DNA from: a virus
Taxonomy: Duplodnaviria; Heunggongvirae; Uroviricota; Caudoviricetes
Virus record (IMG/VR): IMGVR_UViG_3300013902_000267
Length of the DNA: 64,000 bases
Strand: one strand, 5' to 3'
Position numbers and translations under genes: made by a program. The notes under the pieces were generated by a model. The model was not told the origin of the DNA. It worked only from the letters and a program-made list of their open reading frames with translations, and did not search any database. The number at the start of each line of letters is the position of its first letter. Positions within the stretch are counted from its first letter, which is position 1. This document shows positions 9,581 to 43,657 of the stretch, piece by piece.

Positions 9581-9657
9581 TTTTTTTATTTCAAAATAAT
9601 TATGTATCTTTGTATTGTTAATAAACAAAAAGTATAAACAATTAAAAATATATAATT

Positions 9658-10863: not shown

Positions 10864-10874
10864 TATGATATAAT

Positions 10875-11828: not shown

Positions 11829-11861
11829 TCAAATAAGTAAAATAAATTAATTAAAATAATA

Positions 11862-12365: not shown

Positions 12366-12398
12366 AATGAAAATTAATTAATGATAGAAATATAAATT

Positions 12399-13166: not shown

Positions 13167-13188
13167 TTTTTATTCTATATATAATAGA

Positions 13189-13226
13189 AAAGAGACTTAG
13201 AACAAAAATACTAAGTCTCTTTTTAT
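13189..13226. terminator. bidirectional terminator between convergent genes
   Basis: AAAGAGACTTAG / CTAAGTCTCTTT hairpin flanked by A and T runs. Confidence 0.6.
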
Positions 13227-13262
13227 TTTTTATAAACATTCACATTTAATTTTACTATAAAA

Positions 13263-13889
13263 TTAAAGCATACATTCATCCCACCAGTCAGCGCGGAAAG
13301 TCATATCACAAGACATCAAATCTGTACTGTCATAATTAAGTGTAGGACCAGGTACACCTGTTGTAGGGAAAATGTAATAGAATACCCATTGCCAATATGG
13401 ATTACCAGCACGATCTTGCATAGTAATAGTCATTGATGGCGCCACGTAATCTTTCTTAAGGCCTTCACGACCTGTAAGAGGATCATAAATAAGGTCAACC
13501 CATTCACGAAGGAACTTATATGTGTAGTTCTCAGGTGAACCGTTATCATATGAAAGGTTAAGGTTAAAGTGTAATGTCAAGTCGACATTAGTTCTATCTG
13601 GTTTTGCACCAGCGAATGAACGTTGTGCAAATTTATACTTTTGCTCTGTTGCGTTAGCACCAAATGAAGTAGAAATCTGACCAACACTTTGTACACCTTC
13701 AAGAATAATATTCAAACGTTCATCATCTGTTGTATCAACCATACCTTGAGGACAACTTAATTGAACAGTAAACAAGTTCAAATATATAGGTTCCCATAAT
13801 GAGGTAGATACACGGCTATTTCTAAAATGTGATAATCCTAACAAACCTGGAGATTTCTTAGGTAAAGTAGGTCCATTTGTTACTGCCAT
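13263..13889 (-). CDS. tail tube protein (T4 gp19-like)
   Basis: IYLNLFTVQL near the N-terminus and a MTFRADWWDE C-terminus recall T4 gp19 PNLFQVEI ... TLALDYWE. TAG-free and visibly higher GC than its neighbours. Confidence 0.6.
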   Translation of the reverse strand: MAVTNGPTLPKKSPGLLGLSHFRNSRVSTSLWEPIYLNLFTVQLSCPQGMVDTTDDERLNIILEGVQSVGQISTSFGANATEQKYKFAQRSFAGAKPDRTNVDLTLHFNLNLSYDNGSPENYTYKFLREWVDLIYDPLTGREGLKKDYVAPSMTITMQDRAGNPYWQWVFYYIFPTTGVPGPTLNYDSTDLMSCDMTFRADWWDECML

Positions 13890-14042
13890 ATTATTATTAA
13901 AGTATATTTTATTTTATTTATCTGTGAAAAATAGGTAGATTAAATGTAGACAAAAATATTTTTTTATAGTATAAATTAAGAATTTAAAAAAAATAGAGAT
14001 AAATAATTAAGTTCAAAAAATAAATTTTAAATAAAGAAGAAA

Positions 14043-14216
14043 ATGAAGAAGATTTTATTTGTACTTGCTGCTGTTGTAACAATGAGTTTCGCTTCTTGTG
14101 GTAACAAGACTACTACATGTGGAACAGCAAATGATTCAACTGCAACAGATACTACAGTTGTTGATTCTACAGCTACAGATTCAACTGCAGCTGATTCTAC
14201 AGTTTGTCCTATGTAA
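14043..14216 (+). CDS. small lipoprotein with DSTA repeats (57 aa)
   Basis: MKKILFVLAAVVTMSFASC signal peptide plus lipobox, then a repeated (T/A)DSTA(T/A) motif. Below the track cutoff. Confidence 0.55.
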   Translation: MKKILFVLAAVVTMSFASCGNKTTTCGTANDSTATDTTVVDSTATDSTAADSTVCPM

Positions 14217-14389
14217 TTCATAAGACAAACTTTATTTTAGAGAAGATTATTGTGTAATTAAAATATAACCTAATATAAGGTTTATATTAAACTAATTTTA
14301 GAGATATACTAAATATATTCATTTATATTTGGTATATCTTTTTTTATTTAATAAATATTTAAAATTTATTTAACTGAATTATATAATAT

Positions 14390-15286
14390 ATGGCAACATG
14401 GAATCAAGCAGTTCAATAGATGGGTAAGTTTTATCAATAGAATATACATACATATCAAGGAGGTAAATCAGGACATGCGACAGGTGCTAGACGTTCTTAT
14501 TCATGTCCTTTAGTTGGACACAGTGTAGGAGATGATTGTTCAGGATTTACTTCTGCGTGTTTATAGTTATTTGGAGCATTTCCAGGCTCATATATTGTTT
14601 CATCTAGTGGTTTTGCATCAACATCTGGTGCAACAGCCGCATATTTAAGAAAAGCTGGATTTTCACCGTTAAGATATATTAGTTACTCATCTTTATAGCC
14701 ATATGATATTGTTGCAAGAAATGGACATGTTGAAGTATTTTGTGGTATGAAGGGAAGTTCACCAATGTCATACGCATGGGGAAATATTCATGATGGCATA
14801 AATGGACATGTTGGTATGCCATGTTGGTTTTCTAAACAGTCTTATTCTATTGTATGGAGAAATTCTGGTGTAAGTATAGATACACCATTAGATTTTTCTT
14901 CAGTGTCTGGCGGTTCATTACAACAATAGATGAATTCTGGATATGGTACAGGTGGAACATTAAATGGGTAGACAGGTTCATAGTTTAATTATACATCAAA
15001 TACATATCCTGTTCATGATGAATATGAAACTATTTCATCTGGTAATGGTTCAAAATCTGTATTTGAAATTGTAGGTGAAAATACATTACGTATGGCATAT
15101 ACAAATTCATCATATATACAACAATTAGATTCATCTAATTATTAGTTAAAAAATACTCGTATATATTCAACTAATGATGCATCTATAATATTAGATGAAT
15201 TATCAATACCATTAGATCCATTTGATACGAGTGTTAATACATTAGATTCAAGTGTTATTGATAATTCAGTTAAAACAAATAATTAA
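14390..15286 (+). CDS. NlpC/P60-type cell-wall peptidase (about 8 in-frame TAG)
   Basis: ATG 14390 is in frame with track ORF 14747-14929. DCSGFTSACL (Cys nucleophile) and NGHVEVF (His); ends TAA 15284-15286. Confidence 0.7.
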
Positions 15287-15292
15287 TAATAT

Positions 15293-16333
15293 ATGGCTGG
15301 CAAGAAATTACTTAATGGTGTTTATATAACAAAGAAAATAATGGAAGCTTTTAATCTTAAAGATTATCAGGCTGCTGGATTTGCTGGTTGTTTTATGGAA
15401 GAATCTGGTTGTGATCCCGGTGCATATAATGCCGCTGAAAAATCTGGAAGATTTAAAGGTTCATCAGCGAACGGTGCAGGTTATGGTGCAGGTCTTGCAT
15501 AGTGGTCTAATGCATGGAAACGGTAGATATAGAGATAGTTTAATAATTCAAGGCCTATAGAAAATTGGACATTAGATTAGCAAATAGCTATTGTTACTAA
15601 AGGCTGTTCATAGTCTTTTGTAAATTTATTAAGAAAATGTACATCAGTAGGTTAGTCTACAGATATTGTTTTAAGAGGATATGAAAATGGTTCTGCAGGT
15701 AAAGGTACTAAATTACGTTCATAGCAATCAATGAAAGCATATACGTGGTGTAAGACATCATATATGGCAGATGGTAGTAGACGTACGTTTAGTGATGGAT
15801 ATATTGGTGCATTAACATGTAGAACATCATGGGCTAATGCAGTTTTAAGTAAAATGGGATCAGTTAATCTTGCAGATTTATCCGGATTAGGAACAGAAGT
15901 AGGTGGAGGATTAGGTGATGATGGCTCTTTTGGTTCTACTGGTGGAGGAGGAACTGGAGATTCAAACGCATATCCTGTTCATGATGAATATGAAACATTT
16001 ACTGGACAAGGTGGAAATATATTTGCAAATGCAAAAGATAATGCATTTCAATTAGCTGCTGATGCATCAAAATCTAAATTTTCATCTAAAGATTCTGAAG
16101 CATCTAAGCATACACGTATATATTCTACAAATGATTCTTGTATTGTTTTAGATGAATTAAGTATACCATATGATCCAAATGATCCAACTATTGAATATGC
16201 AAATCAAAATGTAAAAGCGGAAGATGTTAAGAAAGATACATCTACTAATGCAAAAGATAATACTAAAGACACATCTACAAATAAAAGTACAAATAAATCT
16301 AATACTACAAAAAAGACAACTAAATCTAAATAA
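15293..16333 (+). CDS. lysozyme-like (phage tail lysozyme-type) peptidoglycan hydrolase (about 8 in-frame TAG)
   Basis: Track ORFs 15293-15502 and 15731-16333 are co-framed (438 nt apart) and joined only by TAGs. AAGFAGCFMEESGCDPGAYN ... GYGAGLA-TAG-WS motif. Confidence 0.7.
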
Positions 16334-16335
16334 TT

Positions 16336-19300
16336 ATGATTACAATAAATGGTATTAAATATTTAAAAAAAGGAGAGACATCAAATGATAAAACAATAAC
16401 GCATTATTATTATACAGATTCATTAAAGAAAACTTATAACATAATATATAATGGCAAAAATGCTAAATTATATACAGATACTAAAGTATACAAGGATTCT
16501 GATACAAATTAGATTATAAAGAAAGATTTCTTTAATTATACTATTGATTACGGAACAGGAAAATATGGAGGTGTTTGTTATTCAAAATCAGATGAAGATA
16601 AGATATTAGGTATGGTCGATTCTGATAGTAATATAGATGGAAGTTCTAATGGAGATTCTACAACTGATGGTGATAATAGTTCAAACTCTGGAAATAATTC
16701 TGATGATTCTGATAATAATGACGGTAATAGTTCAAATAATGGTAATGGAACAGGTGATGATACAAATGATTCTGATAGTAATGGATCTGGTAATAAAGAT
16801 ACTAATAATAAAGGTATATTTGAGGATTCAATGGGTAATAAAGATAAAGATAATCCTCGAAGTTCATTACCATTAGGAGCAGATATTAAAGATCCTGATG
16901 TTACAGGTTTTAGCATTGATGAAGTAACAGCGCCACATCCACGAGAAAACAATTGGTATAATAAAGGTTCTGTTTGTCCAATAATACGTATAAATGATCA
17001 TTATTTTTCTGATACTGAAATATAGCATTTTTCTATGGAAACTGGATATTATAAGAATTTTTATGATTATCAAGTATACCAAGCACCGTTAACAGGTGTT
17101 TTACCAACTATGAGGCTTATTGTTACAACAACAGATCCAGGTTTATTAAAGAAAGATTTTATAAAGCAAGGTGATAGATGTAATGTATTTTTCTAGAGTA
17201 ATCATTCTATGATTAAATCTATGAGATGTGATTTCAGAATTACTAATGTTGTAACAGATTAGTTAGATTAGACGTAGTATTAGAAATATCAAACATAGAT
17301 TATAACAGGTGAACTTTATGTCCCGGATTTAAGAAATGAAGAAACTCGTTATAATTTTAATGGTTCATCAAGAGATGCTATGATGGATTTGGCAAAGAGA
17401 TTAAGATTAAGTTTTTTCTTTTGTGATCCTGATGATACTAATGATAAAATGGTTTGGTGTAATTGTAAAACACCTGAAATGTTCATTCATGATTTAACAA
17501 CGCATGCATGGAAAAATTCTATATCATTCTTTGAATCTTGGATTGATCCACGTTATGGATTATCTTTTATGAATATTAATAGATTATTAGGTGAAGATGG
17601 ATTTGATGAATCAATAGATATGACATTCTGGACTAATACATTTATTAATAATAGATCAGTTGATGGAAAATCTGCAAATGAAACAGATACAGAATAGAAA
17701 AATAGTACACATATTCAAACAAAATGTTTTACTAATATTATTAATGATAATGAATCTGCTACAGTATATCATGTTAATAGTTGGAGATTGGTTAATAATG
17801 CATAGGAAATACAAGATTTTGTTGGATTGAATTGTAAAATGCAATATTCATCTGTTAATCCTGGATTATTATCAGATGAGAATAATAATCCAAATTATAG
17901 TGTAGAATTTTCATTATGTTTAAATAGAACTAAATTTGATCCAACTAAAAAGGATAATGATTTTTATGTATTATTAGGACCTGGTAGAAATATGACATAT
18001 GCGAGTGGCGATGCCGCCATGGGAACATCTGAAACACAATCTTCAAATAAAAATGAACCTGAACAAGTTACAAATCAAATGTCTGATGGTGATGCAGATG
18101 CAATGGATAGTACAGGAAATAATATGATGTCTTCTGGTAATACACATCAATTTTATGAAGTTGCTTATGAACATAATATGAGAAATTTACTATAGTTATA
18201 GAAATAGTATTTACTTGTAGAATTAAATGGTGCAAACTTAAGTATTGTTCGCGGTGAAAAAATGCCTATTGTATTAATGGATTTAAATAAAGCAGAACAA
18301 GCTATTAGAACTAGTCAAGCACGTACAAAAATAGAAGAATGTATGTATGAAGCTGAATCCGGTTGGTATATAATTGATGGTATTGAATGGGTTTTTGATC
18401 CTGATAATGATTAGGGACAAGGTACAAACTGGCGAACTAATGTGAAATTAGTTAGAAGAGAATGGCCAATACCATCAAAAATAAAAGATGCAAATGGTAA
18501 TACTGTTTCAAAAAATGTCGCAAATAGTATTGTTTTGGTAGATATTGGAAACGGACAATAGATAAGAATGGCTTATTATGATGCAGTAAAGAAATATAGT
18601 TAGGAAATAAAAAATGGTGATGTCAAAATATTAGGTGGAACAACATCTGAAGACGCAGTTGTAATTGGTCAGAAAAAACAAAACATATCTTCAACTAATG
18701 ATGAATAGAATTCAGATGATCTAGAAGAAAGTGGTAAATTATATACTGCAAATGGTGTAGAGACTGTAAGTGCAGTTAATTTTAATCTTGATTTAATGGA
18801 TCAATATGTAAAAGATTCTGATTATGTTGGTTAGTCTACAATACCTTTAACTGGTTTGAAAGATTTTATGAAAAATATTTATAAAACAATATTATCTGAA
18901 TCCGATAATAAATGTAAATTGGTATCTGGAAGACGGTGGGCAGTAGATGAATATGGTAATAAGGTAAATGGAAATGCGTTTGTAAAGAAATATGATTATT
19001 ATAAATGTATGAATGCTATAGGTGAAGTAATGTATTTTAAAAAAAATAATTCAAGTCATTTATATGGTGAAGCTATTGATATTATTAATAATGGTATAGA
19101 TTTTACTGAACTTATGACTAATGTAATAATGAAATCACCTGCGATATTAAAATTATTTTATGATAATGGTGTTTCTGCTTATATAGAGCAAGCAAAGGAT
19201 GATACAGGCGCAACTACTAAACATTACCATATTGGAACTGATACAATAAAACAACGAGAATTTTGGGAATCTGTTAAAGCTATATTAGGTTCTGATATGA

Positions 19301-19425
19301 TTCCAGGAACTATGATAACATTTATGAACTATATGACAAAAAATACATAGAGAACAACAGAATTCTCTGTAAGTAGTGAAATAGACGAAAACACATTACA
19401 AAAAAATAGTAATAATGATAAATGA
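16336..19425 (+). CDS. large tail/baseplate-associated protein with C-terminal M15-type peptidase (about 19 in-frame TAG)
   Basis: Track ORFs 16612-17025, 17380-17697, 17827-18195 and 18856-19350 all share the frame of ATG 16336. N/D/S/G-rich low-complexity region; SSHLYGEAIDI...HYHIGTD zinc-peptidase motif; ends TGA 19423-19425. Confidence 0.7.
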
Positions 19426-21489: not shown

Positions 21490-21579
21490 TTAAATATTTT
21501 CTTTTGGTAAATAAACACGTGTCTTTTGTTCTTTCTGACGTCCATCAGACCAATTCGAAATTTTAGTTAAATCACAATA
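21490..21579 (-). CDS. nrdD: anaerobic ribonucleotide reductase NrdD, exon 6 (C-terminus after the glycyl-radical Gly)
   Basis: Minus-strand frame reads (Y)CDLTKISNWSDGRQKEQKTRVYLPKENI-TAA, completing RIIG|Y from exon 5. The 5' boundary is approximate. Confidence 0.6.
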   Translation of the reverse strand, partial: YCDLTKISNWSDGRQKEQKTRVYLPKENI

Positions 21580-21817
21580 TACCCGAACTTTCATTCTATT
21601 TTAAAGGGGTTAGACTATACCACTAACTTCTTGAGTTACATCTTGGTAGTCGTTGAGGGCTTTTATTTGTTTCGTATCAAATAACTATCCCTGCTGATTA
21701 TCCATTGTTATATCATTAGAATTTTTACACTTTGGTATCTAATGCTTTAGGAACTTCCAGCATATTCGATGTTTGCTATATATGTCACCATATATAGGGG
21801 CATTTAATTAAAAATTT
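21580..21817 (-). ncRNA. group-I-like intron 5 (ORF-less)
   Basis: About 238 nt interrupt the RIIG/Y glycyl-radical motif. Contains ACTACCAAG ... GGTATAGTCTAA, like the P7 region of T4-type group I introns. The exact splice sites are ambiguous. Confidence 0.5.
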
Positions 21818-22156
21818 ACCCGATTATTCTGTCATATAAACTTACATGAACTGATCCACACTTTGGACATACACTAAATGGTGTCTTTGAAATATATCCA
21901 CAATCTTCACATTTACAATTAGGAACATTAAATGTCCAATATTGACAACCATTCTCTGCCGCAAATTTCATAATGTGAACAATCTGTTTCTTAGACAAGT
22001 GCTCTGACAAATTGAGATGCGCTGCTGAACCACCATCCAAAAAATCTCCAATATAGTTCTTACCATGTAAGGTAATCTTATCAAAGATTGACAATGTTTT
22101 ATCATTTGGTTTGAATATGTAAGACGCATACAGGTTAGTGTCTGTTGGTACCCAAT
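21818..22156 (-). CDS. nrdD: NrdD exon 5
   Basis: (Y)WVPTDTNLYASYIFKPNDKTLSIFDKITLHG...LDGGSAAHLNL...CEDCGY...CPKCGS...YDRIIG; track ORF 21816-22094 extended upstream. Confidence 0.75.
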
Positions 22157-22191
22157 CAACTCTGTTACATGATTACATAATAATTTTAATA

Positions 22192-22479
22192 TTATTGTTG
22201 AATGTAATCTGATTTATTAATATATTCATTTAGATTTATTAAACCTGCATGAATTTTCCTATGACAATTTGAACATACACATACACATTTTTTTATTTCT
22301 TCATATAGTTTTTCTTTACCTCTCCCTCGATGTTTACCTATTGTAAAATCTTTTTCATTTGGATCTATATGATGAAAATCTATACAACATGGTTCATATT
22401 CACTACATATTATACATGGATTCTTTAATGAATATAACCATTCTGTTTTTCTTTTTTGTGAACGCTTATTTTTGTTCAT
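22192..22479 (-). CDS. HNH homing endonuclease (intron 4)
   Basis: CIICSEYEPCCIDFHHIDP...CSNCHRKIH HNH/zinc motif; track ORF of 95 aa. Confidence 0.7.
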   Translation of the reverse strand: MNKNKRSQKRKTEWLYSLKNPCIICSEYEPCCIDFHHIDPNEKDFTIGKHRGRGKEKLYEEIKKCVCVCSNCHRKIHAGLINLNEYINKSDYIQQ

Positions 22480-22612
22480 TATGTATTTCAGGATGTGCTT
22501 TTCTCATCTATTTCCTATATAATTTTCTACATTCTTTACATACTGCACGTCCTTTTTCAAACATTTCTATAGACAATTCTTTACCACATTTATTACATAT
22601 TTTTGTTGTCAT
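22466..22612 (-). CDS. Cys4 zinc-ribbon ORF, probable detached N-terminus of the intron-4 HNH endonuclease
   Basis: MTTKICNKCGKELSIEMFEKGRAVCKECRKLYRK-TAG-MRKAHPEIHNEQK. Overlaps the HNH ORF start in another frame at an A-run. Confidence 0.4.
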
Positions 22613-22911
22613 ATATATTAAATTATGTTTTATTATTTATCACCGGAACATGACAAAAATAACATAACCCAATTATATTAATAAACGCTTAATTATTTCT
22701 AATCAAGTCTCTATGTTACCATAGAGTTCGGACTATTGCATAGTTTTGTTTCACAACAAAACTCCTTTTTATTTAGTCTCTCAGGCTGCCCATAACATTG
22801 TTGTTATTGCTTGCCCCTCGTTATCCTTACTACCGGTACCTAAGGTAATAAAATGTAAGGAACTTCGAGTCAATTAAAAAAGGTTTTACATGGACATTGT
22901 TATTGTTGTCT

Positions 22912-23395
22912 ATCCATCTTCAGAATCCCAATTATAATTCTTTATTGCCAAACTTTCAGCTGGTATACATTCAGTATTGAACGTTAACTTATGACCGTTA
23001 AATGTACCTGCAGCTTCTTGATTCTTTTGCTTTATATATCCAAATATTGTTTGACAAAGTTTTTCATAATGAGGATTTACATTACAAGTAATTCCTAAGA
23101 ATTCTGCCATTTGATTAAGACCATTCAAACCAATTGTTAAATATTGCTTATTCAAATTAATAAACCCTGCTTTATATACAGGTAATAATCCTGCGTCATA
23201 CATATCCCAAAGAAGTTCATTATATGCTGTATGATATTTATATACTCTATCAAGAATATTACCAAAATATTCGCACATATCATCATAATGCTCTTCTACA
23301 TTTTCTTTTGTTACTCCAGATTTCTTAACACTGTTAAACCAGTCTTGAGTTATGCGACTAAGATTCAGGGTTATCACACTTTTACTTCCTGTTTG
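22912..23395 (-). CDS. nrdD: NrdD exon 4
   Basis: QTGSKSVITLNLSRI ... AESLAIKNYNWDSEDG; track ORF 22910-23377 extended upstream. The 5' boundary is approximate. Confidence 0.75.
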
Positions 23396-24623
23396 ACGTT
23401 TTCTCCATATATTTCTATATGGTCCGGGTCATATCTTATGTTTATTTAAATAATAAACATTGCACTATTTCGGCATTTAAAACGATTCGTTTCCTAAAAC
23501 GTTACTACGTATCAATAGTAGTCCTACTCCACCTGCTCATCACTTAGGGGATGACCTCCACACACATTAATAATTTTTATATGTTCTACCTATTAACATA
23601 TTCCTAAAATTATTCATTAAATAATTTTTATATTTACCGATTTTTAATTCTTCAATAGATTTGCCATTATTATATTGTTCTCTTAAATAAACAACTTCAT
23701 CTTTAGATAACAATGGTAACTTCTATTTACATTTATCAGTTCTAATAGGCATTTTTACATGCATATATGATTTTCCAAATAATATTTTATTAAATCCACT
23801 CCATGAATATAAATTACTATATTCTTTAAAAATATCATCTTCTTTTTCACCATTTACAAAATATCTTATTCTTATGTTTAATACTTCTTCATCAGATAAA
23901 TTCTTAGAATTTGCATGCATATTTCCTCTACGTGTTCTTCGATCTGATTTATAAAAATCATTTACTTTATCTGTATTATATTCTATACCAATTTCAGGTC
24001 TTGTATAATAATGCCAATATTTTGAAAATCCACTTTTTGACATTCTATCTTTATACATTTCATATACTTCTCCAAAAGTATATTTCATAGAATAACGTAT
24101 TTTTCTTAATTCTAATAATTCATTATCATTTAATATTGCTTTGGGATGCTCCTCCCCAACTTTTATTATAGTTGCAGAATGTCCACCCAATGTAGAATTA
24201 TATCCATTATTATAACTATCATATAATTTAATGTAATATATTTCTTTATTATCAGCTTCATCCTAATTAGGAACATTATCTTCTAATATTGAAAAATTTG
24301 ATTCATTAATATTATATTTTCTCATTGCTCTATATAATTTATAATCACTATGTTTCATATCATTTAAATGTTCTCTTACTCTTATATGATAATGATGTGT
24401 CTACCCAATATATACTTTTCCATTAGGAAATGATATTTTATAAATTGTAAATATTTTATTCATATATTATAAATGTAAAATTATAACATATTTATATTAA
24501 CTTGGCTCGGTATTACCATGCATATAGTTTCACAACTTATGTTTAGGCTTCACCGATGCATTAATATCGCTATATTAATACATTGCTTGATTAGCAATTA
24601 AGCACATAAAGGACCCAAGTTGA
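23396..24623 (-). mobile_element. group-I-like intron 3 with GIY-YIG endonuclease ORF
   Basis: Separates GNLG(I) from QTGSKSV. Structured flanks include GCCGAAATAGTGCAATG. Boundaries are good to about 10 nt. Confidence 0.6.
23567..24463 (-). CDS. GIY-YIG homing endonuclease (3 in-frame TAG)
   Basis: IYKISFPNGKVYIG-TAG-THHYHIRVREH...YNNGYNST; in frame with track ORF 23723-24190; ends TAA. Confidence 0.75.
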
Positions 24624-25408
24624 TCCCTAAATTTCCATTTGTGAAGTTGAATTCCTTTGTTTGTATCTTATTCTTAAGTCTGCAGTTATGTGTTATATTT
24701 CCATTAGGCATTAAGAAATATGGTTCAAGATTCTTATCGCAGAGTTCTACACAATAATAATCTTTTGGTTCATCAAGATTTACAACTTCAACCTTTGTAA
24801 TTTTTCTTATAACAATGTCTTGATCTACATCTTTAAAATCATTTCTAAACATACCCATATATTGTCCATACTCAAAGATAAGTTGATCTCCTGTTTGAAG
24901 CAAATATGCTTGCTTATCTTTAATCATCTTATCATCATCAATAATAGGGAATATATGATCCGGTGTAACTCTCATTACATTTCGTGATTCATCCGGATTA
25001 AAATCGTCTGGAGCGAAATAAATTCTTACTTCTTGAACTGCTTCTGCTTTTACAAACTTAGCATTTACCCATTCACCTGTACATTTACCTGTTGTACCAT
25101 TAAAATTCATATGATATACATTAATAATTTCATCCTTATGCTTTTCATATGCATTTTTAAATGACTCAACCATATATGCGTTTGAACCTGCGTTTTCTTC
25201 CATATTACAAGGTTCTACATACATGAATGGAGTATCACCATCGAAACAACAACTTGATAATGAATCAACTGTATCTGACATATATGTAAAGAATGAATGA
25301 CCTCTTGCATATTCATCCGCCACAAAATCTGCAGATTCCTTATCAAGGAATTCTCCATCCTTATATACTAATGCGAAACTTTCCCATTTATATTCTATAT
25401 AGTTCGTT
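24624..25408 (-). CDS. nrdD: NrdD exon 3 (includes the intein)
   Basis: ...FALVYKDGEFLDKESADFVADEYARGHSFFTYMSDTVDSLSSC [intein] CRLKNKIQTKEFNFTNGNLG; track ORF 24598-25425. Confidence 0.75.
24685..25248 (-). mobile_element. mini-intein (188 aa Hint domain, no endonuclease domain)
   Basis: Starts CFDGDTPFMYV, has block B VTPDH, and ends YYCVEL..PYFLMPNGNITHN followed by +1 Cys. Excision restores SLSSC-CRLKN. Confidence 0.75.
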
Positions 25409-26203
25409 ACACTATATACGTTCATAATAATGAACTGCTTTATGTTACCATAAAGATTAGACTATATCACAATCCTATAAATATAGGATTCTCCCCATTT
25501 CCACTCACTTGAGTGTACTTCCTTTCGGAATAGTCGTTGAACCTTATTATATAAATGAATATTTATGACCATAATATAATCTATTTGCATTTATCGATTT
25601 TACTAATCCTGATATACATGCAGTTCCTCCAATATTTTTAATAACTTCGGACATTGATGAATATATTATATTATTATCTAAACATTTTATTTTCTTTGGA
25701 AACGTTTTTCCCTTCATCGTATTACCAAATGTTTTAATAGAATATAATTCATTCTCTGATTGTGTGCACCATTCTAAATTATCTACTCTATTATCTGATC
25801 TATTACCATTTAAATGATTTACAAATGGTTTATTTTCAGGATTTGGTATAAATTCTTGAGCAACAAGTCTATGACATAAATATCTAGTTTTAATAGAATT
25901 TTGCATTAATGATATTCTTAAATAACCATCTAATGTATATTCTACTTTTAATGGTTTACCTTTATACGGACGTAATCCACCCCATCTACAAGGCACCATT
26001 CTATCTTTACTTCTGAAATTACCTAAATTACTAACTTCAAATGCGCCATCATATCCTGTTATACTTTTCCAAATTTCTTCCATAATATTCTCTTATATAA
26101 TCTTGGTTGCTGATTATCTAATAACTTCGCATATTTATTAGAGTTCCCAGCAGTTAAAGGAGTTTTTCAATAATAAATTACTTTATTATGCCGCAGATTG
26201 ATT
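25409..26203 (-). mobile_element. group-I-like intron 2 with HNH endonuclease ORF
   Basis: Interrupts TFPV / TNYIEY. Core GTGATATAGTCTAA and CGACTATTCCGAAAGGAAGT elements. Boundaries are approximate. Confidence 0.6.
25547..26083 (-). CDS. HNH homing endonuclease (I-HmuI-like, NUMOD4 + HNH)
   Basis: YDGAFEVSNLGNFRS and VNHLNGNRSDNRVDNLEWCT motifs; track ORF of 178 aa. Confidence 0.8.
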   Translation of the reverse strand: MEEIWKSITGYDGAFEVSNLGNFRSKDRMVPCRWGGLRPYKGKPLKVEYTLDGYLRISLMQNSIKTRYLCHRLVAQEFIPNPENKPFVNHLNGNRSDNRVDNLEWCTQSENELYSIKTFGNTMKGKTFPKKIKCLDNNIIYSSMSEVIKNIGGTACISGLVKSINANRLYYGHKYSFI

Positions 26204-26442
26204 TACGGGGAAGGTGATTATCGTACGAAGACGTTCCTTATTAAACCATATCATGAAGTCTTTCTGTAACCATGAAACACTTTCCCAACATGGTCTTGTT
26301 CCTTCTTCATCAGGAAATACAAATTCACCAAACATACCTTCAAAGAACGGTTTATCAAAATAAGAGAAATTTACAACATTTTTTCTTCTACATAAATCGT
26401 TACTTTATGTACGTTACTATTTGTAACTGCTCTATGATTTCC
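26204..26442 (-). CDS. nrdD: NrdD exon 2
   Basis: Minus frame reads NHRAVTNSNVHKVTIYVEEKNVVNFSYFDKPFFEGMFGEFVFPDEEGTRPCWESVSWLQKDFMIWFNKERLRTIITFPV. Antisense to track ORF 26272-26454. Confidence 0.6.
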
Positions 26443-27797
26443 ATAGACGATTAACGAATTTCACGTTAAAAGGGTTTGTTTAAACCGTTTAGACTATATC
26501 ACCAAATTTAATTTTCTTAAATTTGCACCTACACTTCCATAACACTTGTTATGTACTCTACTAACTCATTTAAAGTTTTCGATAGTCGTTGAACTTTTAT
26601 CCTTGTAGGATAATTAGCTGCGTATGATTACCCAATCTTTATCGTTTTTACAATCTGATAGCCGTTATACTATCTGCTACTATCTATGTTACCATGATAT
26701 GCTGTAGATAAAGCTCTAAGGGACTTCCCGCAATTCAAGGTGTTTATTAACGTCAGCACATGTAATTTCTCTTATAATTTAATTATTACCAAAATTATGT
26801 ATTTTATACATGTGACAATTTTTACAATATGTTATAAGATTATCTATGTTATTAAGTTCTTTATTTTTTATCGCTAAATTAAATAATTCATCAAAATTAT
26901 CAGTAGGATTTAATTCTGGATGTTCTGATAATAAATTATGAAATAATATTTTAAATGGAACTATATGATGAACTTGAAGATTTTCATGACAACCGCATAG
27001 CTAACAAGTATTATGATCTCTCTCTATAACTTCTGGAACTAATCGATTAAAATATGTTCTTATTTTATTACCTAATCTTGTAGTATCTGTTGTATATGGA
27101 ATATTAGTAATATTTAAACTATTTAATACTCTATTAATTACAGCTATTGTACAATTATATCTCCGTGCCAATTCTGTTTTTGATATTGACTATTCAATAT
27201 ATAAATTATATAATTTTTTATAATCATTAAAATCTTCTGGTATTTCTTTTTTATGATAATTCCACATAGATTCTGCAAAAGTACGTCTTTTAATCCCATT
27301 ATGTTTTAAATGACTTCTTATAGTAGTTGCTGAACAGTTAAATATTTTACCTATTTCTACTGTAGATTTACCATCATTATATAATTTTATTATTTCCTAA
27401 TCATTTGTATCATCATATTGTTCATAAACTTCATAATTAGTATTTTTTATATTATATTTTTTAAAATATCTATTAATAGTACCTTTATGACATTTATATA
27501 TTTCTGAAATTTCTTTCATTGTTAAACCATTATTAACATAATTTATTAAATCTTCTTTTTTAATTATTAATTTAGATTTTTCAATATTCCATTTTCTTAA
27601 ATATTCTTTAATATTTGCTAATGTTGTATTTCCTTCTTTAGCACACTATTTTCGTGTTAAACCTTTAATAACATAATTTTCATATAACCAATCTCTATCT
27701 TTTGTAAAATATCTATAATTAGACATAATTTCAGATATGTAAAATTACATACAGGATTATGTAATTTTTAATTTATTTTAGTTTATGCTGACTATAA
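26443..27797 (-). mobile_element. group-I-like intron 1 with HNH endonuclease ORF
   Basis: Separates INQPAASRG from NHRAVTN. Core GGTGATATAGTCTAAACGG and CAACGACTATCGAAAAC elements. Boundaries are approximate. Confidence 0.6.
26779..27726 (-). CDS. HNH homing endonuclease with repeated HTH modules (4 in-frame TAG)
   Basis: 948 nt from ATG to TAA when TAG is read through. RDHNTC-TAG-LCGCHENLQVHHIVPF ... YCKNCHMYKIH, plus three NUMOD-like HTH repeats. Confidence 0.75.
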
Positions 27798-28901
27798 TCC
27801 TCTGGAGGCCGCAGGTTGGTTAATTGAATACACGACCTATTGAAAGAATTGTTGAATACATGAACCAATAGTTCTTGTACCATCACCTATCTTAATAGGA
27901 TTCGTAAAATCTTTTATTGAACCTTCAACATCATATTGTGATAATTCTTTCTCATATGCTTCAAGTTCTTCATCTGTTAACTCTCTTTCTGAATTATAAA
28001 CAAGTTCATCACGAAGTTTGTTTAATTCGTCTGAACCAAAATCATGTTTTCTCAATGTATCTACATCTTTACACCAATAATTAGATTCATTAAGAAGTTT
28101 CCTATATTTAGGCCCAATCTTATAAAATTCTTTACTATGCAAATGATAATCTTCACCAAACTCTTTTCTTGCAAAATAATCAAAATAAACAAGAAATTCC
28201 GATGTTGCAACTGCACCTGCAAATTGAGCAGCAACTGCAAATACAAGATTTACATACATACCACAATAAGAATCAAGATTTTGTGGATGACATGAAAGAC
28301 CTCCTATTTTTTCTAAACCATTATGAAGGAATGGATACATAGTTATACTTGTGCAATACGGACTTATGGCACCAGCGAAGCTAGACTCATCGTTCTTATA
28401 TATAATATGGTTTTTTAAATCTTTTTGATATTGTTTTGCTTTAAAATTTGGATATAGTTCTTTAAGTTTCCTTGTAATCATACCTCTGCTTACAAGAATA
28501 TTATCAGCTTTATGAATTTCAGCATTTAATACACCGATATTCTTAGAAGAAACATTAGAATTATCATCTACAGTACTATTTGCAGTATTAGATGCATTCT
28601 TATATCTTTCAATAAATGCTTCCTTATTAGCAACCCATTCTCTAATTTCCTTTTTCTTGTTACGATAAAGAATAAATTCTTTCGCAACTTTAGGATAATC
28701 ATGAGAATACAAACTTGTTTCAATTTGATCCTGTATTTCCTCTACAGGAATACCATCATATGGTGTTATTGAGTTTGCAATATTAGCTATAGTATCTTTA
28801 GTATACTTAGTTTTCGTAGACTTAAACGCCTCACGAATCGCTCGTTTAACTGTCTAAACACTATAGTTCTCAAAACTACCATCACGTTTCGTTACCTTCA
28901 T
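27798..28901 (-). CDS. nrdD: NrdD exon 1 (ATP-cone plus N-terminal core; in-frame TAGs at 28854-28856 and 27837-27839)
   Basis: MKVTKRDGSFENYSV-TAG-TVKRAIREAF (ATP-cone) is in frame with track ORF 27837-28712. Continues through TAG 27837 to VVYSINQPAASRG. Confidence 0.8.
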
Positions 28902-42043: not shown

Positions 42044-43555
42044 TTAATTAGTTTCATTTTCTGATGATTGTTCATCTTCAATATTAGTTATACCTGCATC
42101 TAATTCTTTTTCTTCCTTATTAACAAAACGATAGCACTTCAATTTGAATGCACGAGGTATCATATCATCTATTTTAATTACAACACCTTCATGTGGAACT
42201 TTATTATTACATTCAGGTGATAACATTTCCATATAAAAATTCTTATCACTTGACATCTTATTCCAAAAATTTTCGTGCCAATGATTAGTTATATCAAGCT
42301 CAGGATACAAATCTTTAGCTTTACCATAATAATATTCAATTACAGGTGTTAATTCATGTTGAATACACCATACTTGTACTTCTCGTGGTGAAAATTCATG
42401 TACATCTCCATCAACATTTGTTAAAGTAATACGATATATCATTATCTTAAAATGCTTTCCATATGTATACTCTTCACCAGACTTTAAAGGTACACATCCA
42501 TAATCATATCCCTTTTGTATATAATTATTATTTGGAAGATAACCTACAATTTCTGCATAAATCATCATTCCCTTTATCATGTGTGGCTTTAATACATTAA
42601 ATGCTTCACCCCATATATCAAAATTATAGAATCCCTTATGATATACATTACCATTTTTTTCAGATTCCTTCATTATATACTGGTTTTTTATAACAGTTCT
42701 TGATGAATATAAATAATCATAATCATTAAATTCATAACCTGTTAAAAATTTCGCAATTTTCTGCTTTATAGTTAATTGTTTCTTACATAAAACATAACCA
42801 ACACAAAGAGAAGTACCGTGCCATTTAGAACTTATATGTATATAATCATTAGGTTGAACAACAAATGGAACCTTCTTAACAAGTGCAGTGTCGTAATGGA
42901 ACCTAAATTGTTCTGGTATAACTCTGTTAAATCTCTTTAACTTTCGTTGTCTTCTCTTATATCTAGATTGATCACCTCCAGTTTTATTTCTCTTTATAAA
43001 TATCTTTGGTATAAATTTCTTTGATAACCAAAATGATTTACCATTATGTTCAATAGTATCAAACCATGTTCCATCCTTTATATCATTCTCATTAACTTCT
43101 ATATTAAAATTATCTAATATAAAATTAAGAACTACTTGTAATTCTATCAAGAAACCATCTGATACACCATTAGGTAAAAATACTTTTTCAACTTCTCCAG
43201 TAGATGGATCAATTTTATCCATTGTTGCTCGTAGTCTAATGGACTTCACTCTACCATTATCATCAAATAACCCAGTTTTATTAGGATTACTATTCATTTC
43301 ATTTTTACGATATAAATTAGCATATCTTAAAAATTCAGGATTTATTTGTGTACTTGATGGAAAGAATACATATTTTCCTGGTTGTGAATCCTTACTTACT
43401 ATAACATTATAAATTGTATCTCCACCTATTCTACAACACTTTAACTTGTTAACTTCAGGATTAGGATGTGGAGAGAAATCCTCTTCCTTGATATAAATTA
43501 CACGTGAAACATAATTAGGGTGTAATTCACTTTCCTTCGACTTAATAAACTTCAT
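42044..43555 (-). CDS. ATP-dependent RNA ligase (503 aa)
   Basis: ISSKWHGTS (KxHG nucleotidyl-lysine motif), IYAEIVGY, HEGVVIKID and FKLKCYRF motifs. Confidence 0.7.
   Translation of the reverse strand: MKFIKSKESELHPNYVSRVIYIKEEDFSPHPNPEVNKLKCCRIGGDTIYNVIVSKDSQPGKYVFFPSSTQINPEFLRYANLYRKNEMNSNPNKTGLFDDNGRVKSIRLRATMDKIDPSTGEVEKVFLPNGVSDGFLIELQVVLNFILDNFNIEVNENDIKDGTWFDTIEHNGKSFWLSKKFIPKIFIKRNKTGGDQSRYKRRQRKLKRFNRVIPEQFRFHYDTALVKKVPFVVQPNDYIHISSKWHGTSLCVGYVLCKKQLTIKQKIAKFLTGYEFNDYDYLYSSRTVIKNQYIMKESEKNGNVYHKGFYNFDIWGEAFNVLKPHMIKGMMIYAEIVGYLPNNNYIQKGYDYGCVPLKSGEEYTYGKHFKIMIYRITLTNVDGDVHEFSPREVQVWCIQHELTPVIEYYYGKAKDLYPELDITNHWHENFWNKMSSDKNFYMEMLSPECNNKVPHEGVVIKIDDMIPRAFKLKCYRFVNKEEKELDAGITNIEDEQSSENETN
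42066..42093. repeat. 28-nt perfect direct repeat copy B
   Basis: See copy A. Confidence 0.7.
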
Positions 43556-43657
43556 ACTAGATTTAATTTTATTTTCCTATGTCATTCTTTAGTTCGAGTC
43601 TCCACTACTCACGTATCACCAGATTATTTTTTAATAGGAAAATAATCAAACCTATTA

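What the first reader, a model, noticed from the sequence alone, without database searches (positions are those of the whole stretch)
23567..27726. Some intron-borne endonuclease genes are themselves TAG-recoded and others are not
The GIY-YIG ORF (3 TAG) and the HTH-HNH ORF 26779-27726 (4 TAG) only make full-length proteins if TAG is a sense codon. The free-standing LAGLIDADG ORF 40811-41974 (7 TAG) behaves the same way. The I-HmuI-like HNH ORF 25547-26083 and the small HNH ORF 22192-22479 have none. The first group has therefore either evolved for a long time inside recoded genomes or moves only among them. The TAG-free group could be recent arrivals or expressed early. This gives an internal clock for the history of the mobile elements.
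Basis: inference. Interest (0 to 1): 0.5.

Follow-up and report, generated by a model that had tools for sequence, protein, structure and literature searches.

The report
Homing endonucleases wearing different genetic codes
In a giant gut phage that reads the stop codon TAG as glutamine, three selfish homing-endonuclease genes use that altered code and two in the same enzyme gene do not, which hints at where each came from, although a similar recoded endonuclease has already been published for another phage group.

Summary
The window is Prevotella megaphage Lak-B7, a known TAG-to-Gln phage. The TAG counts are exact: GIY-YIG 3, HTH-HNH 4, LAGLIDADG 7, and the two small HNH ORFs 0. On the minus strand, 28901-21490 is one nrdD gene. 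It is broken by five group I introns (four carry an endonuclease gene, one has no ORF) and a mini-intein.

The TAG-bearing endonuclease genes are intact, not pseudogenes. dN/dS is 0.13-0.17, TAG positions are conserved between Lak clades, and catalytic motifs lie downstream of the TAGs. Their relatives in TGA-recoded phages carry in-frame TGA instead. Relatives in TAG-recoded phages carry TAG.

Intron A is 97-99% identical between Lak-B and Lak-C while the flanking exon 1 is about 85%. It also drags along an 18-nt exon tract that contains a TAG codon.

The two TAG-free HNH genes occur only in Lak-B. Their nearest relatives (61-72% aa) lie in or beside nrdD of standard-code phages.

The "clock" is weak. 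It rests on 0 of 6 Gln codons. The LAGLIDADG is Lak-B-only yet has 7 TAG. The old intein has none. A genome-wide check of 8 genes gives p = 0.29. Borges et al. already described a recoded intron endonuclease.

The parts
27785..28901 (-). nrdD exon 1 (ATP-cone plus the N-terminal part of NRDD). It has TAG at codons 16, 355 and 370.
   Evidence: Pfam ATP-cone and NRDD hits. The junction was defined against intron-less Lak-A1. The codon-16 TAG is conserved in Lak-A1, A2, C1 and B3.
26377..27784 (-). Group I intron A (1408 nt). The ribozyme core lies downstream of the ORF.
   Evidence: Absent from Lak-A1 and present in Lak-C1. The 5' exon ends in T and the intron ends in G. Rfam RF00028 matches the full-length model at 33 bits, E = 8.5e-7, which is below the gathering score of 50. 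It is 97-99% identical to Lak-C1 while exon 1 is about 85%.
26779..27726 (-). HTH-HNH homing endonuclease gene in intron A, 315 aa, 4 in-frame TAG (27648, 27399, 27192, 27003).
   Evidence: Pfam HTH_28/HTH_23 plus HNH_2/HNH. dN/dS is 0.125 against Lak-C1, with all 4 TAG positions shared. Homologues at the same nrdD site carry 6 TAG, 1 TAG or 2 TGA, matching the host contig's code.
26205..26376 (-). nrdD exon 2
   Evidence: blastn against Lak-A1/A2/C1 and the spliced translation.
25385..26204 (-). Group I intron B (820 nt)
   Evidence: Absent from Lak-A1, A2 and C1. U/G boundary rule met. It is homologous to introns at the same FPV|E site in standard-code phage contigs. 20 of 43 predicted pairs show compensatory changes.
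25547..26083 (-). I-HmuI-like HNH endonuclease gene in intron B, 178 aa, no TAG (3 CAA).
   Evidence: Pfam NUMOD4 plus HNH_3. PDB 1U3E I-HmuI at E = 1.3e-11. Found only in the nine Lak-B records. Nearest relatives are 61-72% identical and sit in nrdD of standard-code contigs L008, L111, L112, L113.
24623..25384 (-). nrdD exon 3, which contains the mini-intein
24685..25248 (-). 188-aa mini-intein inserted in the SSC|C...HN|CRL active-site motif. It has no endonuclease domain, 0 TAG and 6 CAA.
   Evidence: Pfam Intein_splicing at 27 bits, below cut-off. C...HN|C boundaries are visible. Present in Lak-A1, A2 and C1. Codon counts.
23397..24622 (-). Group I intron C (1226 nt)
   Evidence: Absent from Lak-C1 and present in A1 and A2. 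U/G rule met. It has diverged from Lak-A1 about as much as the flanking exons. No Rfam hit, and no canonical P7 motif was found.
23567..24463 (-). GIY-YIG homing endonuclease gene in intron C, 298 aa, 3 in-frame TAG (24403, 24265, 23725).
   Evidence: Pfam GIY-YIG at 22.2 bits against a cut-off of 22.6. The I-TevI catalytic domain 1MK0 matches at E = 6e-5, with Y, Y, R, H, E and N aligned. dN/dS is 0.17 against Lak-A1; 3 TAG are shared and Lak-A1 has 3 more. Homologues in nrdD carry 0 TAG, 5 TGA or 1 TAG.
22912..23396 (-). nrdD exon 4
   Evidence: Pfam NRDD positions 281-428. Junctions.
22157..22911 (-). Intron D (755 nt), polymorphic within Lak-B
   Evidence: Absent from Lak-B3, B5, B6, A1, A2 and C1. 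U/G rule met. An AGACUA...UAGUC motif is present, but there is no RF00028 hit.
22192..22479 (-). Small HNH endonuclease gene in intron D, 95 aa, no TAG (3 CAA).
   Evidence: tblastn matches annotated HNH endonucleases in many standard-code phages. Nearest relatives are 63% identical and lie next to nrdD in standard-code contigs L088-L091. A 218-aa paralogue elsewhere in Lak-B7 has 2 TAG; a second tblastn place in all listed Lak-B records and hits in all 15 Lak records suggest, but do not show, that it is pan-Lak.
21818..22156 (-). nrdD exon 5, ending ...YDRIIG
21573..21817 (-). ORF-less group I intron E (245 nt) at the position of the C-terminal glycyl-radical glycine of class III reductases (RIIG|Y; role assigned from general knowledge)
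   Evidence: Absent from Lak-A1, A2 and C1. RF00028 partial hit at 24 bits, E = 3e-4, covering P4-P6 and J6/7-P7. It shares UUCAACGACUA...AUAGUCUAA with introns A and B.
21490..21572 (-). nrdD exon 6 with the stop codon
40811..41974 (-). Free-standing LAGLIDADG endonuclease gene, 387 aa, 7 in-frame TAG. It lies inside a roughly 1.18-kb insertion (about 40888-42065) that is absent from Lak-C1.
   Evidence: Pfam LAGLIDADG_3. Found only in the nine Lak-B records. Insertion mapped. Homologues carry 8 TAG and 3 TAG in TAG-recoded contigs and 0 in a standard-code contig. The TAG at codon 138 aligns with a Gln that most homologues share.
42044..43585 (-). RNA-ligase-like gene just upstream of the LAGLIDADG gene. 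Its C-terminal ...ITNIEDEQ tail is duplicated at the end of the endonuclease ORF.
   Evidence: Pfam RNA_ligase. Tail duplication seen.

Best explanation
The locus is the anaerobic ribonucleotide reductase gene (nrdD) of megaphage Lak-B7, which decodes TAG as glutamine. It has been colonised repeatedly by mobile group I introns.

Each endonuclease gene carries the imprint of the genetic code of the genomes in which its lineage has been evolving and expressed. The GIY-YIG, HTH-HNH and LAGLIDADG lineages have long circulated in stop-codon-recoded phages. Over that time, CAG/CAA and other codons drifted to TAG, until TAG became their commonest Gln codon. They are intact and under purifying selection. 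They can only be made when TAG is read as Gln.

The two TAG-free HNH genes belong to intron families whose known members sit in or beside nrdD of standard-code phages. They were added to the Lak-B lineage after it split from Lak-A and Lak-C.

Shown: the TAG counts, the gene integrity, the intron boundaries, the clade distribution, the code of the relatives, and horizontal exchange of intron A among Lak lineages.

Inferred: the direction and timing of transfer, that TAG accumulation is mostly neutral drift, and that the endonucleases are active.
For: 1. Genome and code. The window is 100% identical to Lak-B7. Eight plus-strand ORFs at 10.3-19.4 and 62.7-63.9 kb are full length only if their 2-19 in-frame TAG are read through. 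TAG in Lak-B7 exons aligns with CAA in Lak-A1. TAG-to-Gln in Lak is published.

2. Intact genes. GIY-YIG, Lak-B7 against Lak-A1: dN/dS 0.17 at dS 0.475, with 3 TAG positions conserved. HTH-HNH, Lak-B7 against Lak-C1: dN/dS 0.125, with 4 TAG conserved. The I-TevI catalytic residues align. The HNH motif lies downstream of all four TAG.

3. The in-frame stop type follows the host genome.
- GIY-YIG relatives in nrdD: 5 in-frame TGA in a TGA-recoded contig (L105), 1 TAG at the same YIGqT position in L106, and 0 in L104.
- HTH-HNH relatives at the same RGLQSA| site: 6 TAG (L107), 1 TAG (L108), and 2 TGA in a TGA-recoded contig (L109).
- LAGLIDADG relatives: 8 TAG (L101), 3 TAG (L102), and 0 in a standard-code 45% GC contig (L103).

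4. Movement among recoded genomes.
- Intron A is 97-99% identical between Lak-B7 and Lak-C1 while exon 1 is about 85% identical.
- dS is 0.105 for the endonuclease gene against 0.75 for exon 1.
- The 18 nt of exon before the intron are entirely synonymously recoded in intron-plus alleles, including CAA to TAG. Lak-C1 switches from Lak-A1-like to Lak-B7-like sequence exactly there.

5. TAG-free pair.
- Intron B is only in Lak-B. Intron D is in 6 of 9 Lak-B genomes.
- The four nearest relatives of the intron B endonuclease (61-72% aa) lie in nrdD of 34-37% GC contigs with no internal in-frame TAG. Three of them (L008, L111, L113) are shown at the same FPV|E site. The ribozyme is homologous and covaries across L008, L111 and L113.
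- The nearest relatives of the intron D endonuclease (63%) are beside nrdD in standard-code contigs.
- The paralogue of the intron D endonuclease elsewhere in Lak-B7 has 2 TAG.
Against: - The TAG-free state rests on 0 of 6 Gln codons. P is 0.002-0.03 at the TAG share of the recoded endonuclease or TAG-rich genes, but 0.63 at the rate of neighbouring genes.
- TAG load does not track clade distribution cleanly. The LAGLIDADG is Lak-B-only with 7 TAG. The pan-Lak mini-intein has 0 of 6. A pan-Lak HNH has 0 TAG in Lak-B7 and 1 in Lak-A1 and Lak-C1. Over 8 endonuclease-like genes in the genome, one-sided Fisher p = 0.29.
- The TAG-free genes are already as AT-rich (GC3 0.11 and 0.08) as resident genes, while their relatives have GC3 0.26. 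Either they are not very recent arrivals or the true donor is unsampled.
- Codon usage excluding TAG does not separate the two groups.
- L104 shows that a GIY-YIG relative can be TAG-free. The code of that contig is undetermined: no TAG is used as sense or as stop in 14 genes.
- Nothing here shows endonuclease activity or expression timing.
Confidence: 0.6

Rival explanations
1. Regulatory gating. In-frame TAG in the endonuclease ORFs is selected because it blocks their translation until the phage's suppressor tRNA is active. This keeps ribosomes out of the intron while it must fold and splice, and delays DNA cleavage. The TAG-free endonucleases are simply those expressed without such a delay. 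This can coexist with the history explanation.
For: - Borges et al. report a group I intron endonuclease that is preferentially TGA-recoded in Agate phages and propose exactly this delay.
- For T4 I-TevI, ribosome occupancy of the intron impairs splicing, and translation is delayed by an RNA hairpin (Gibb and Edgell 2010, as cited there).
- TAG density in the three endonuclease genes is 8.4-fold above the neighbouring genes, and TAG makes up 64% of their Gln codons against 44% in the TAG-rich plus-strand genes.
- In L102, L106 and L108 the endonuclease gene carries TAG while the adjacent replication genes do not.
- The first TAG is early: codons 21, 27 and 7.
Against: - nrdD itself has a TAG at codon 16, conserved in every Lak clade. 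The host gene is therefore gated in the same way, and the contrast 'early gene, late endonuclease' does not hold here.
- The early position of the first TAG is not significant (combined p = 0.13).
- Two endonucleases in the same transcript unit lack any TAG.
- No expression data exist for this locus.
Confidence: 0.3
2. Chance. The two TAG-free ORFs are short and Gln-poor, and they lie in a TAG-poor part of the genome. The dichotomy carries no information about history or expression.
For: - There are only 3 Gln codons in each ORF.
- P(0 TAG in 273 codons) is 0.63 at the neighbourhood rate.
- About 40 of 56 ORFs in the window are TAG-free.
- The genome-wide association is not significant.
Against: - At the rate seen in the other endonuclease genes, P is 0.02 per codon count or 0.002 per Gln codon.
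- The two TAG-free genes are also the two that are Lak-B-restricted within nrdD, and the two whose nearest relatives are in standard-code phages. Three independent properties coincide.
Confidence: 0.15
3. The TAG-containing ORFs are decaying pseudogenes, and the TAGs are real stops.
For: Under the standard code, each ORF would be cut after 6-26 codons.
Against: - dN/dS is 0.13-0.17 along the full length downstream of the TAGs.
- There are no frameshifts. ORF lengths are identical or nearly so in Lak-A1, Lak-C1 and distant homologues.
- TAG positions are conserved between clades.
- The TAG in YIGqT aligns with Gln in homologues.
- Catalytic residues are intact.
- Eight plus-strand ORFs of the window carry 2-19 in-frame TAG each and are full length only if TAG is read through.
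Confidence: 0.02

Closest known systems
Preferentially recoded group I intron endonuclease of TGA-recoded Agate phages (Borges et al., bioRxiv 10.1101/2021.08.26.457843)
   Same: A homing endonuclease gene sits inside a self-splicing intron of a replication-type gene of a stop-codon-recoded gut phage. It is enriched in the reassigned stop codon relative to its surroundings. The same consequence follows: no endonuclease is made until the code switch.
   Different: - Here the reassigned codon is TAG to Gln, in a Lak megaphage.
- The host gene also needs read-through (codon 16).
- Recoded and unrecoded endonuclease genes coexist in one gene.
- Homologous endonuclease families are traced across TAG-recoded, TGA-recoded and standard-code phages.
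Phage T4 group I introns in td, nrdB and nrdD (sunY), with I-TevI, I-TevIII and I-TevII
   Same: - Mobile group I introns in nucleotide-metabolism genes of a large lytic phage, including nrdD itself.
- A GIY-YIG endonuclease whose catalytic domain aligns with I-TevI.
- Exon co-conversion accompanies homing.
- Endonuclease translation is delayed in T4.
   Different: - T4 uses the standard code and delays I-TevI with an RNA hairpin and a late promoter.
- T4 has one intron per gene. Lak-B7 nrdD has five introns and an intein.
- The Lak GIY-YIG protein is only distantly related beyond the first 90 residues.
Jug jumbo gut phages with nrdD fragmented by group I introns, endonucleases and inteins (Sci Adv 2026, PMC12880540)
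   Same: nrdD of huge Bacteroidota phages is a hot spot for introns, HNH, GIY-YIG and LAGLIDADG genes and inteins. Splicing there is supported by metatranscriptomes.
   Different: In the passages I read, that paper does not mention in-frame stop codons in the endonuclease genes. Lak was not analysed for protein-gene introns in the Lak papers I checked.
I-HmuI / I-HmuII HNH endonucleases of Bacillus phage SPO1/SP82 introns
   Same: The intron B ORF has the NUMOD4 plus HNH_3 architecture and matches I-HmuI (1U3E) at E = 1.3e-11 over residues 5-128.
   Different: It sits in a different host gene (nrdD rather than DNA polymerase). The C-terminal DNA-binding part is not alignable. Nicking activity was not tested.

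Membership tests
Group I self-splicing intron | The 5' exon ends in U (the U.G pair of P1) and the intron ends in G (omega-G). | tested here: met
   All five insertions allow a boundary with T as the last exon base and G as the last intron base. That boundary restores the uninterrupted reading frame seen in intron-less Lak alleles. The boundaries have 1-2 nt of ambiguity, so this is supportive rather than decisive.
Group I self-splicing intron | Conserved catalytic core (P3-P9, J6/7-P7 guanosine-binding site) recognised by the Rfam RF00028 model at its gathering score. | tested here: inconclusive
   Nothing reaches the gathering score of 50. In small-window searches, intron A matches the whole model at 33 bits (E = 8.5e-7) and intron E matches P4-P7 at 24 bits (E = 3e-4). 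Introns A, B and E share UUCAACGACUA...AUAGUCUAA. Intron D has no hit. Intron C was covered only by the broad searches, which gave no hit.
Group I self-splicing intron | Secondary structure maintained by compensatory changes. | tested here: met
   Tested for the 3' half of the intron B family only: 5 sequences, 43 predicted pairs, 20 with double compensatory changes, including hairpins flanking an invariant P7. Not tested for introns C and D.
Group I self-splicing intron | Self-splicing of the RNA and exon ligation. | not testable with these tools
   No transcript data are available for Lak. Splicing of comparable nrdD introns is documented for Jug phages.
GIY-YIG homing endonuclease (I-TevI-like) | N-terminal GIY...YIG module with the conserved Arg, His, Glu and Asn. 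| tested here: met
   The alignment to I-TevI 1MK0 (E = 6e-5) pairs IYKI/IYQI, VYIG/VYVG, R..H, E and NGYN. The Pfam score of 22.2 is just under the 22.6 cut-off. The codon after YIG is TAG and aligns with Gln in homologues.
HNH (His-Me finger) homing endonuclease | HNH motif with flanking Cys pairs, or the NUMOD4/HNH_3 architecture. | tested here: met
   - HTH-HNH ORF: C-x-x-C...HH...N...C-x-x-C-H, with Pfam HNH_2 at 26.9 bits, above cut-off.
- Intron B ORF: NUMOD4 at 53 bits and HNH_3 at 45 bits, plus the I-HmuI match.
- The 95-aa ORF has no Pfam hit. It has C-x-x-C...HH...C-x-x-C-H and tblastn matches to annotated HNH endonucleases.
LAGLIDADG homing endonuclease | Two LAGLIDADG motifs in a single-chain enzyme. 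| tested here: met
   YYAGFIAADGSI and CFIIGVIDGDGSI are both invariant or nearly so across 26 homologues. Pfam LAGLIDADG_3 scores 30 bits.
Homing (mobility) of the elements | Presence/absence polymorphism at a fixed site, with co-conversion of flanking exon sequence. | tested here: met
   All five introns are polymorphic among Lak genomes at exact sites. Intron A is far more similar between Lak-B7 and Lak-C1 than the exons are, and an 18-nt co-converted tract precedes it. Cleavage activity was not tested.
Genetic code 15 (TAG = Gln) phage | In-frame TAG in conserved genes at positions that are Gln in relatives, plus a suppressor tRNA-CUA. | tested here: inconclusive
   In-frame TAG aligns with CAA in orthologues, and TAG aligns with conserved Gln. 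No tRNA with a CUA anticodon lies in this window. The rest of the genome was not scanned for tRNAs. The recoding itself is published for Lak.
Intein | In-frame insertion that starts with Cys/Ser, ends in His-Asn and is followed by Cys/Ser/Thr. | tested here: met
   The sequence reads ...SSC|CFDGDT...ITHN|CRLKNK, and removing the insert restores the SCCRL motif seen in intein-less homologues. Pfam Intein_splicing at 27 bits is below the 35.8 cut-off.

The most novel reading that the evidence does not exclude
The genetic code acts as a mobility barrier and a tracer for selfish DNA. Once an endonuclease gene has picked up reassigned stop codons, it can only drive homing in phages that share that reassignment. 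Endonuclease families would therefore split into TAG, TGA and standard-code pools that still target the same nrdD sites. Code-neutral (stop-free) copies would be the only ones able to cross between pools. Early in-frame stops would also be selected as a translational gate that protects intron splicing. The Lak-B7 nrdD, with both kinds side by side, would then be a natural record of cross-code and within-code invasions.
Probability: 0.3. Interest if true: 0.65.

Novelty: new member of a known kind. Interest (0 to 1): 0.45.

Why it matters
Stop-codon recoding in gut phages is thought to time late gene expression. Whether it also restricts gene flow is an open question.

Homing endonucleases are good probes for this. 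They move between phages, they target conserved sites such as those in nrdD, and their own translation depends on the code of the cell they land in. This locus shows homologous endonuclease families carrying TAG, TGA or neither, according to the genome they sit in. It also shows both states inside one gene.

A systematic survey of such families could measure how often genes cross between code domains and how fast reassigned codons accumulate.

On the practical side, the locus is a warning for annotation. Under the standard code, nrdD of Lak appears as a dozen fragments. Its five introns and intein are not mentioned in the Lak papers I could read.

Tried and rejected
- Rfam on the whole window, and at E <= 1 on 8.7 kb, gave no intron hit. 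Only small-window searches gave sub-threshold RF00028 matches, and none for intron D.
The log-likelihood of each endonuclease gene under the TAG-rich against the TAG-poor gene sets (TAG excluded), and GC3, do not separate the TAG-bearing from the TAG-free genes.
- Position of the first TAG as evidence for gating: not significant (p = 0.13).
- Genome-wide test of the clock. I fetched all of Lak-B7 and looked for endonuclease genes with phmmer seeds and motif patterns. I found only three more (HNH 128115-128531, HNH 131175-131831 and GIY-YIG 413268-414029, in record coordinates). With n = 8 the association between TAG-free and clade-restricted is not significant. The motif screen is crude and may have missed families.
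- Pseudogene reading: rejected on dN/dS and conservation.
- Split-gene reading (separate polypeptides, as in some T4-like nrdA genes): rejected. Exons lack start codons, the boundaries follow the U/G rule, and ribozyme cores are present.
- The other TAG-bearing minus-strand ORFs are not endonucleases. They are Hsp90, RNA ligase, DnaB, a sigma factor and DUF3310.
- The 96-nt tRNA-like gene at 62092-62187 was examined as a possible suppressor tRNA but could not be typed.

Full report
**Identity and code.** The window is 100% identical to Prevotella phage Lak-B7 (MK250026.1); window position plus 139511 gives the record position. Lak megaphages are published as TAG-recoded, code 15 (Devoto et al. 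2019; Borges et al.). The window shows this directly. A plus-strand block at 10270-19425 and the ORF at 62683-63897 are open only if TAG is read through, with 2-19 in-frame TAG per gene. Most other genes have none.

**Observation.**
- GIY-YIG, 23567-24463: 3 TAG.
- HTH-HNH, 26779-27726: 4 TAG.
- LAGLIDADG, 40811-41974: 7 TAG.
- NUMOD4/HNH_3 ORF, 25547-26083: 0 TAG.
- 95-aa HNH ORF, 22192-22479: 0 TAG.

Pfam and PDB searches confirm the families, and tblastn types the 95-aa ORF. The three TAG-bearing genes have 14 TAG per 1000 codons. The 34 other minus-strand genes have 15 per 8845 (Fisher p = 2e-7). The TAG-rich plus-strand genes have 55 per 3013. TAG makes up 64% of the Gln codons in the three endonuclease genes.

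**What the locus is.** On the minus strand, 28901-21490 is a single nrdD gene for the anaerobic ribonucleotide reductase. Comparison with Lak-B3, A1, A2 and C1 gives exact insertions.

| Intron | Window coordinates | Size / content | Distribution among Lak genomes |
|---|---|---|---|
| A | 27784-26377 | HTH-HNH | absent in A1, present in C1 |
| B | 26204-25385 | I-HmuI-like HNH | Lak-B only |
| C | 24622-23397 | GIY-YIG | absent in C1, present in A1 and A2 |
| D | 22911-22157 | small HNH | absent in B3, B5, B6 and in all A and C |
| E | 21817-21573 | 245 nt, no ORF, splits RIIG\|Y at the position of the glycyl-radical glycine (role from general knowledge) | Lak-B only |

Joining the exons gives an uninterrupted 985-aa precursor. 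It also contains a 188-aa mini-intein in the SSC|C...HN|CRL motif.

**Evidence that the insertions are group I introns.**
- Every boundary can be placed so that the exon ends in T and the intron ends in G.
- Rfam RF00028 does not reach its gathering score.
- In small windows it matches intron A over the whole model (33 bits) and intron E over P4-P7 (24 bits).
- Introns A, B and E share the J6/7-P7 and P7' sequences.
- The 3' half of the intron B family shows 20 of 43 pairs with compensatory changes.
- Introns C and D rest on the boundary evidence only. D has an AGACUA...UAGUC pair but no model hit.

**Are the TAG-bearing ORFs real genes?** Yes.
- GIY-YIG, Lak-B7 against Lak-A1: dS 0.475, dN/dS 0.17. 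Three TAG positions are shared and Lak-A1 has three more.
- HTH-HNH, Lak-B7 against Lak-C1: dN/dS 0.125, with all four TAG shared.
- Lengths are conserved and there are no frameshifts.
- The I-TevI catalytic residues align. The first TAG sits in YIG-q-T, where homologues have Gln.
- The HNH motif of the HTH-HNH protein lies after all four TAG.
- The LAGLIDADG has both motifs, and its TAG at codon 138 aligns with a Gln that most of the 25 homologues share.

**History of the TAG-bearing group.**

*Intron C* has diverged from Lak-A1 about as much as the flanking exons. This fits vertical descent since the split of Lak-A and Lak-B.

*Intron A* behaves differently.
- It is 97-99% identical between Lak-B7 and Lak-C1, while exon 1 is about 85% identical.
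- dS is 0.105 for the endonuclease gene against 0.75 for exon 1.
- The last 18 nt of exon 1 read TCC AGA GGA TTA TAG TCA in intron-plus alleles and AGT CGT GGT CTG CAA TCT in intron-minus alleles.
- Lak-C1 switches from Lak-A1-like to Lak-B7-like sequence exactly at this tract.

This is a co-conversion tract, and it carries a TAG-for-Gln codon. The donor was therefore itself TAG-recoded.

*Outside Lak*, homologues fetched with their DNA show the in-frame stop type following the host's code.

| Family | Locus | aa identity | In-frame stops | Host contig |
|---|---|---|---|---|
| HTH-HNH, same RGLQSA\| site | L107 | 64% | 6 TAG | TAG-recoded |
| HTH-HNH, same site | L108 | 41% | 1 TAG | TAG-recoded |
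| HTH-HNH, same site | L109 | 43% | 2 TGA | TGA-recoded |
| GIY-YIG in nrdD | L104 | 56% | 0 | code undetermined |
| GIY-YIG in nrdD | L105 | 49% | 5 TGA | TGA-recoded |
| GIY-YIG in nrdD | L106 | 40% | 1 TAG, at YIGqT | has in-frame TAG elsewhere |
| LAGLIDADG | L101 | 54% | 8 TAG | TAG-recoded |
| LAGLIDADG | L102 | 47% | 3 TAG | TAG-recoded |
| LAGLIDADG | L103 | 42% | 0 | standard code, 45% GC, TAG used as stop |

(HTH-HNH. GIY-YIG. LAGLIDADG.)

**History of the TAG-free group.**
- The intron B endonuclease is found only in the nine Lak-B records among GenBank phages. It has about 2500 distant relatives in standard-code phages.
- Its four nearest relatives (61-72% aa: L008, L111, L112, L113) all sit in nrdD of 34-37% GC contigs whose genes have no internal TAG. 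L008, L111 and L113 are mapped to the same FPV|E site, and their ribozyme is homologous.
- The intron D endonuclease is present in 6 of 9 nearly identical Lak-B genomes.
- Its nearest relatives (63%) lie next to nrdD in standard-code contigs.
- A 218-aa paralogue elsewhere in Lak-B7 has 2 TAG. A second tblastn place in the listed Lak-B records and hits in all 15 Lak records suggest it is shared, but this was not confirmed.

**Limits of the 'clock'.**
- The TAG-free state is 0 of 6 Gln codons. P(0 TAG in 273 codons) is 0.63 at the neighbourhood rate.
- The LAGLIDADG is Lak-B-only yet has 7 TAG.
- The mini-intein is shared by all clades and has 0 of 6.
- A pan-Lak HNH has 0 TAG in Lak-B7 and 1 in Lak-A1 and Lak-C1.
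- A second GIY-YIG gene, polymorphic in Lak-B but also present in Lak-A and Lak-C, has 8-11 TAG.
- Over the eight endonuclease-like genes found in the whole genome, the association between TAG-free and clade-restricted gives one-sided p = 0.29.
- From the GIY-YIG pair, TAG turnover is about 3 events per 298 codons per 0.475 dS. By my estimate, zero TAG in 178 codons then only bounds residence to less than roughly the whole divergence between Lak-A and Lak-B. That says no more than presence/absence already does.
- The TAG-free genes are also already as AT-rich as resident genes (GC3 0.11 and 0.08, against 0.26 in their relatives). Codon usage without TAG does not separate the groups.

**Mechanism.** The best-supported reading is historical. 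In-frame reassigned stops mark the code of the genomes in which an endonuclease lineage has been evolving. Stop-free copies come from the standard-code pool, or are too young or too short to have gained any.

A direct consequence is that the three recoded endonucleases can be made only while TAG is read as Gln.

The regulatory reading of Borges et al. is compatible with this. It proposes that in-frame stops delay endonuclease synthesis, by analogy with delayed I-TevI translation. It fits the 8-fold TAG enrichment. It is weakened here because nrdD itself carries a conserved TAG at codon 16, and because the early position of the first TAG is not significant.

**Novelty.** TAG recoding in Lak is published. 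So is a recoded intron endonuclease (in Agate phages), and so is an intron-riddled nrdD in gut jumbo phages (Jug). The Lak papers I could read mention only tRNA introns. What appears new:
- the anatomy of this nrdD, with five introns and an intein;
- recoded and unrecoded endonuclease genes side by side in one gene;
- the same endonuclease families carrying TAG, TGA or no in-frame stop according to host code;
- the TAG-bearing co-conversion tract.

This is a new member of a known kind, of moderate interest.

Noticed in passing
window 21573-21817 (-): An ORF-less 245-nt group I intron splits nrdD exactly at the RIIG|Y motif, the position of the glycyl-radical glycine in class III reductases (role from general knowledge). 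It is present only in Lak-B. It shares its P7 sequences with introns A and B.
   Followed up: partly
window 24685-25248 (-): A 188-aa mini-intein without an endonuclease domain sits in the active-site SSC|CRL motif of NrdD. It is present in all Lak clades and is TAG-free (0 TAG, 6 CAA).
   Followed up: partly
window 27786-27803 (-), and L003/L004: The 18 nt of exon before intron A are completely synonymously recoded in intron-plus alleles (11 of 18 bases differ, including CAA to TAG). Lak-C1 changes from Lak-A1-like to Lak-B7-like sequence exactly there. This is a textbook co-conversion tract.
   Followed up: yes
L002 (Lak-A2) 3577-4995: Lak-A2 has a different intron 46 nt upstream of site A (VV|YS). 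It carries a divergent 339-aa HTH-HNH gene (32% aa identity) with 9 in-frame TAG, none at the positions used in Lak-B7.
   Followed up: partly
L004 (Lak-A1) 6822-7883; also L002 and L003: Lak-A and Lak-C carry a free-standing 353-aa HNH gene (3 TAG) directly after nrdD. Its last codons (VYLNSENI*) duplicate the end of nrdD (VYLHSENI*). It is absent from Lak-B7.
   Followed up: no
window 40811-43585 (-); alignment A1: The LAGLIDADG ORF, and many of its homologues, end in ...NIEDE(Q/A/N). This duplicates the C-terminal tail of the upstream RNA-ligase-like gene. It suggests the element inserts inside the 3' end of that gene and supplies a replacement tail.
   Followed up: partly
window 62092-62187 (-): A 96-nt tRNA-like gene (Rfam tRNA, 45 bits) with a 25-nt insert was missed by ARAGORN. 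The anticodon could not be assigned. Devoto et al. report an intron-containing tRNA-Tyr in the baboon Lak phages.
   Followed up: partly
Lak-B7 record 128115-128531, 131175-131831 and 413268-414029 (outside the window; L192, L197): Three further endonuclease-like genes lie elsewhere in the genome:
- an HNH with 0 TAG, present in all Lak clades;
- an HNH with 2 TAG that is a paralogue of the intron D endonuclease;
- a GIY-YIG with 8 TAG that is present in only 5 of 9 Lak-B genomes and at 69% identity in Lak-A and Lak-C.
   Followed up: partly
L088/L089 890-3309: In these standard-code phage contigs the nrdD ORF stops right after ...GLASC. It is followed by the small-HNH relative and then nrdG. 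The second half of nrdD was not found in the locus.
   Followed up: no
window 943-10149 (+) versus 10270-19425 (+): There is a sharp switch on one strand from 13 consecutive TAG-free genes to 7 TAG-rich genes (2-19 TAG each). The boundary is near 10.2 kb.
   Followed up: no
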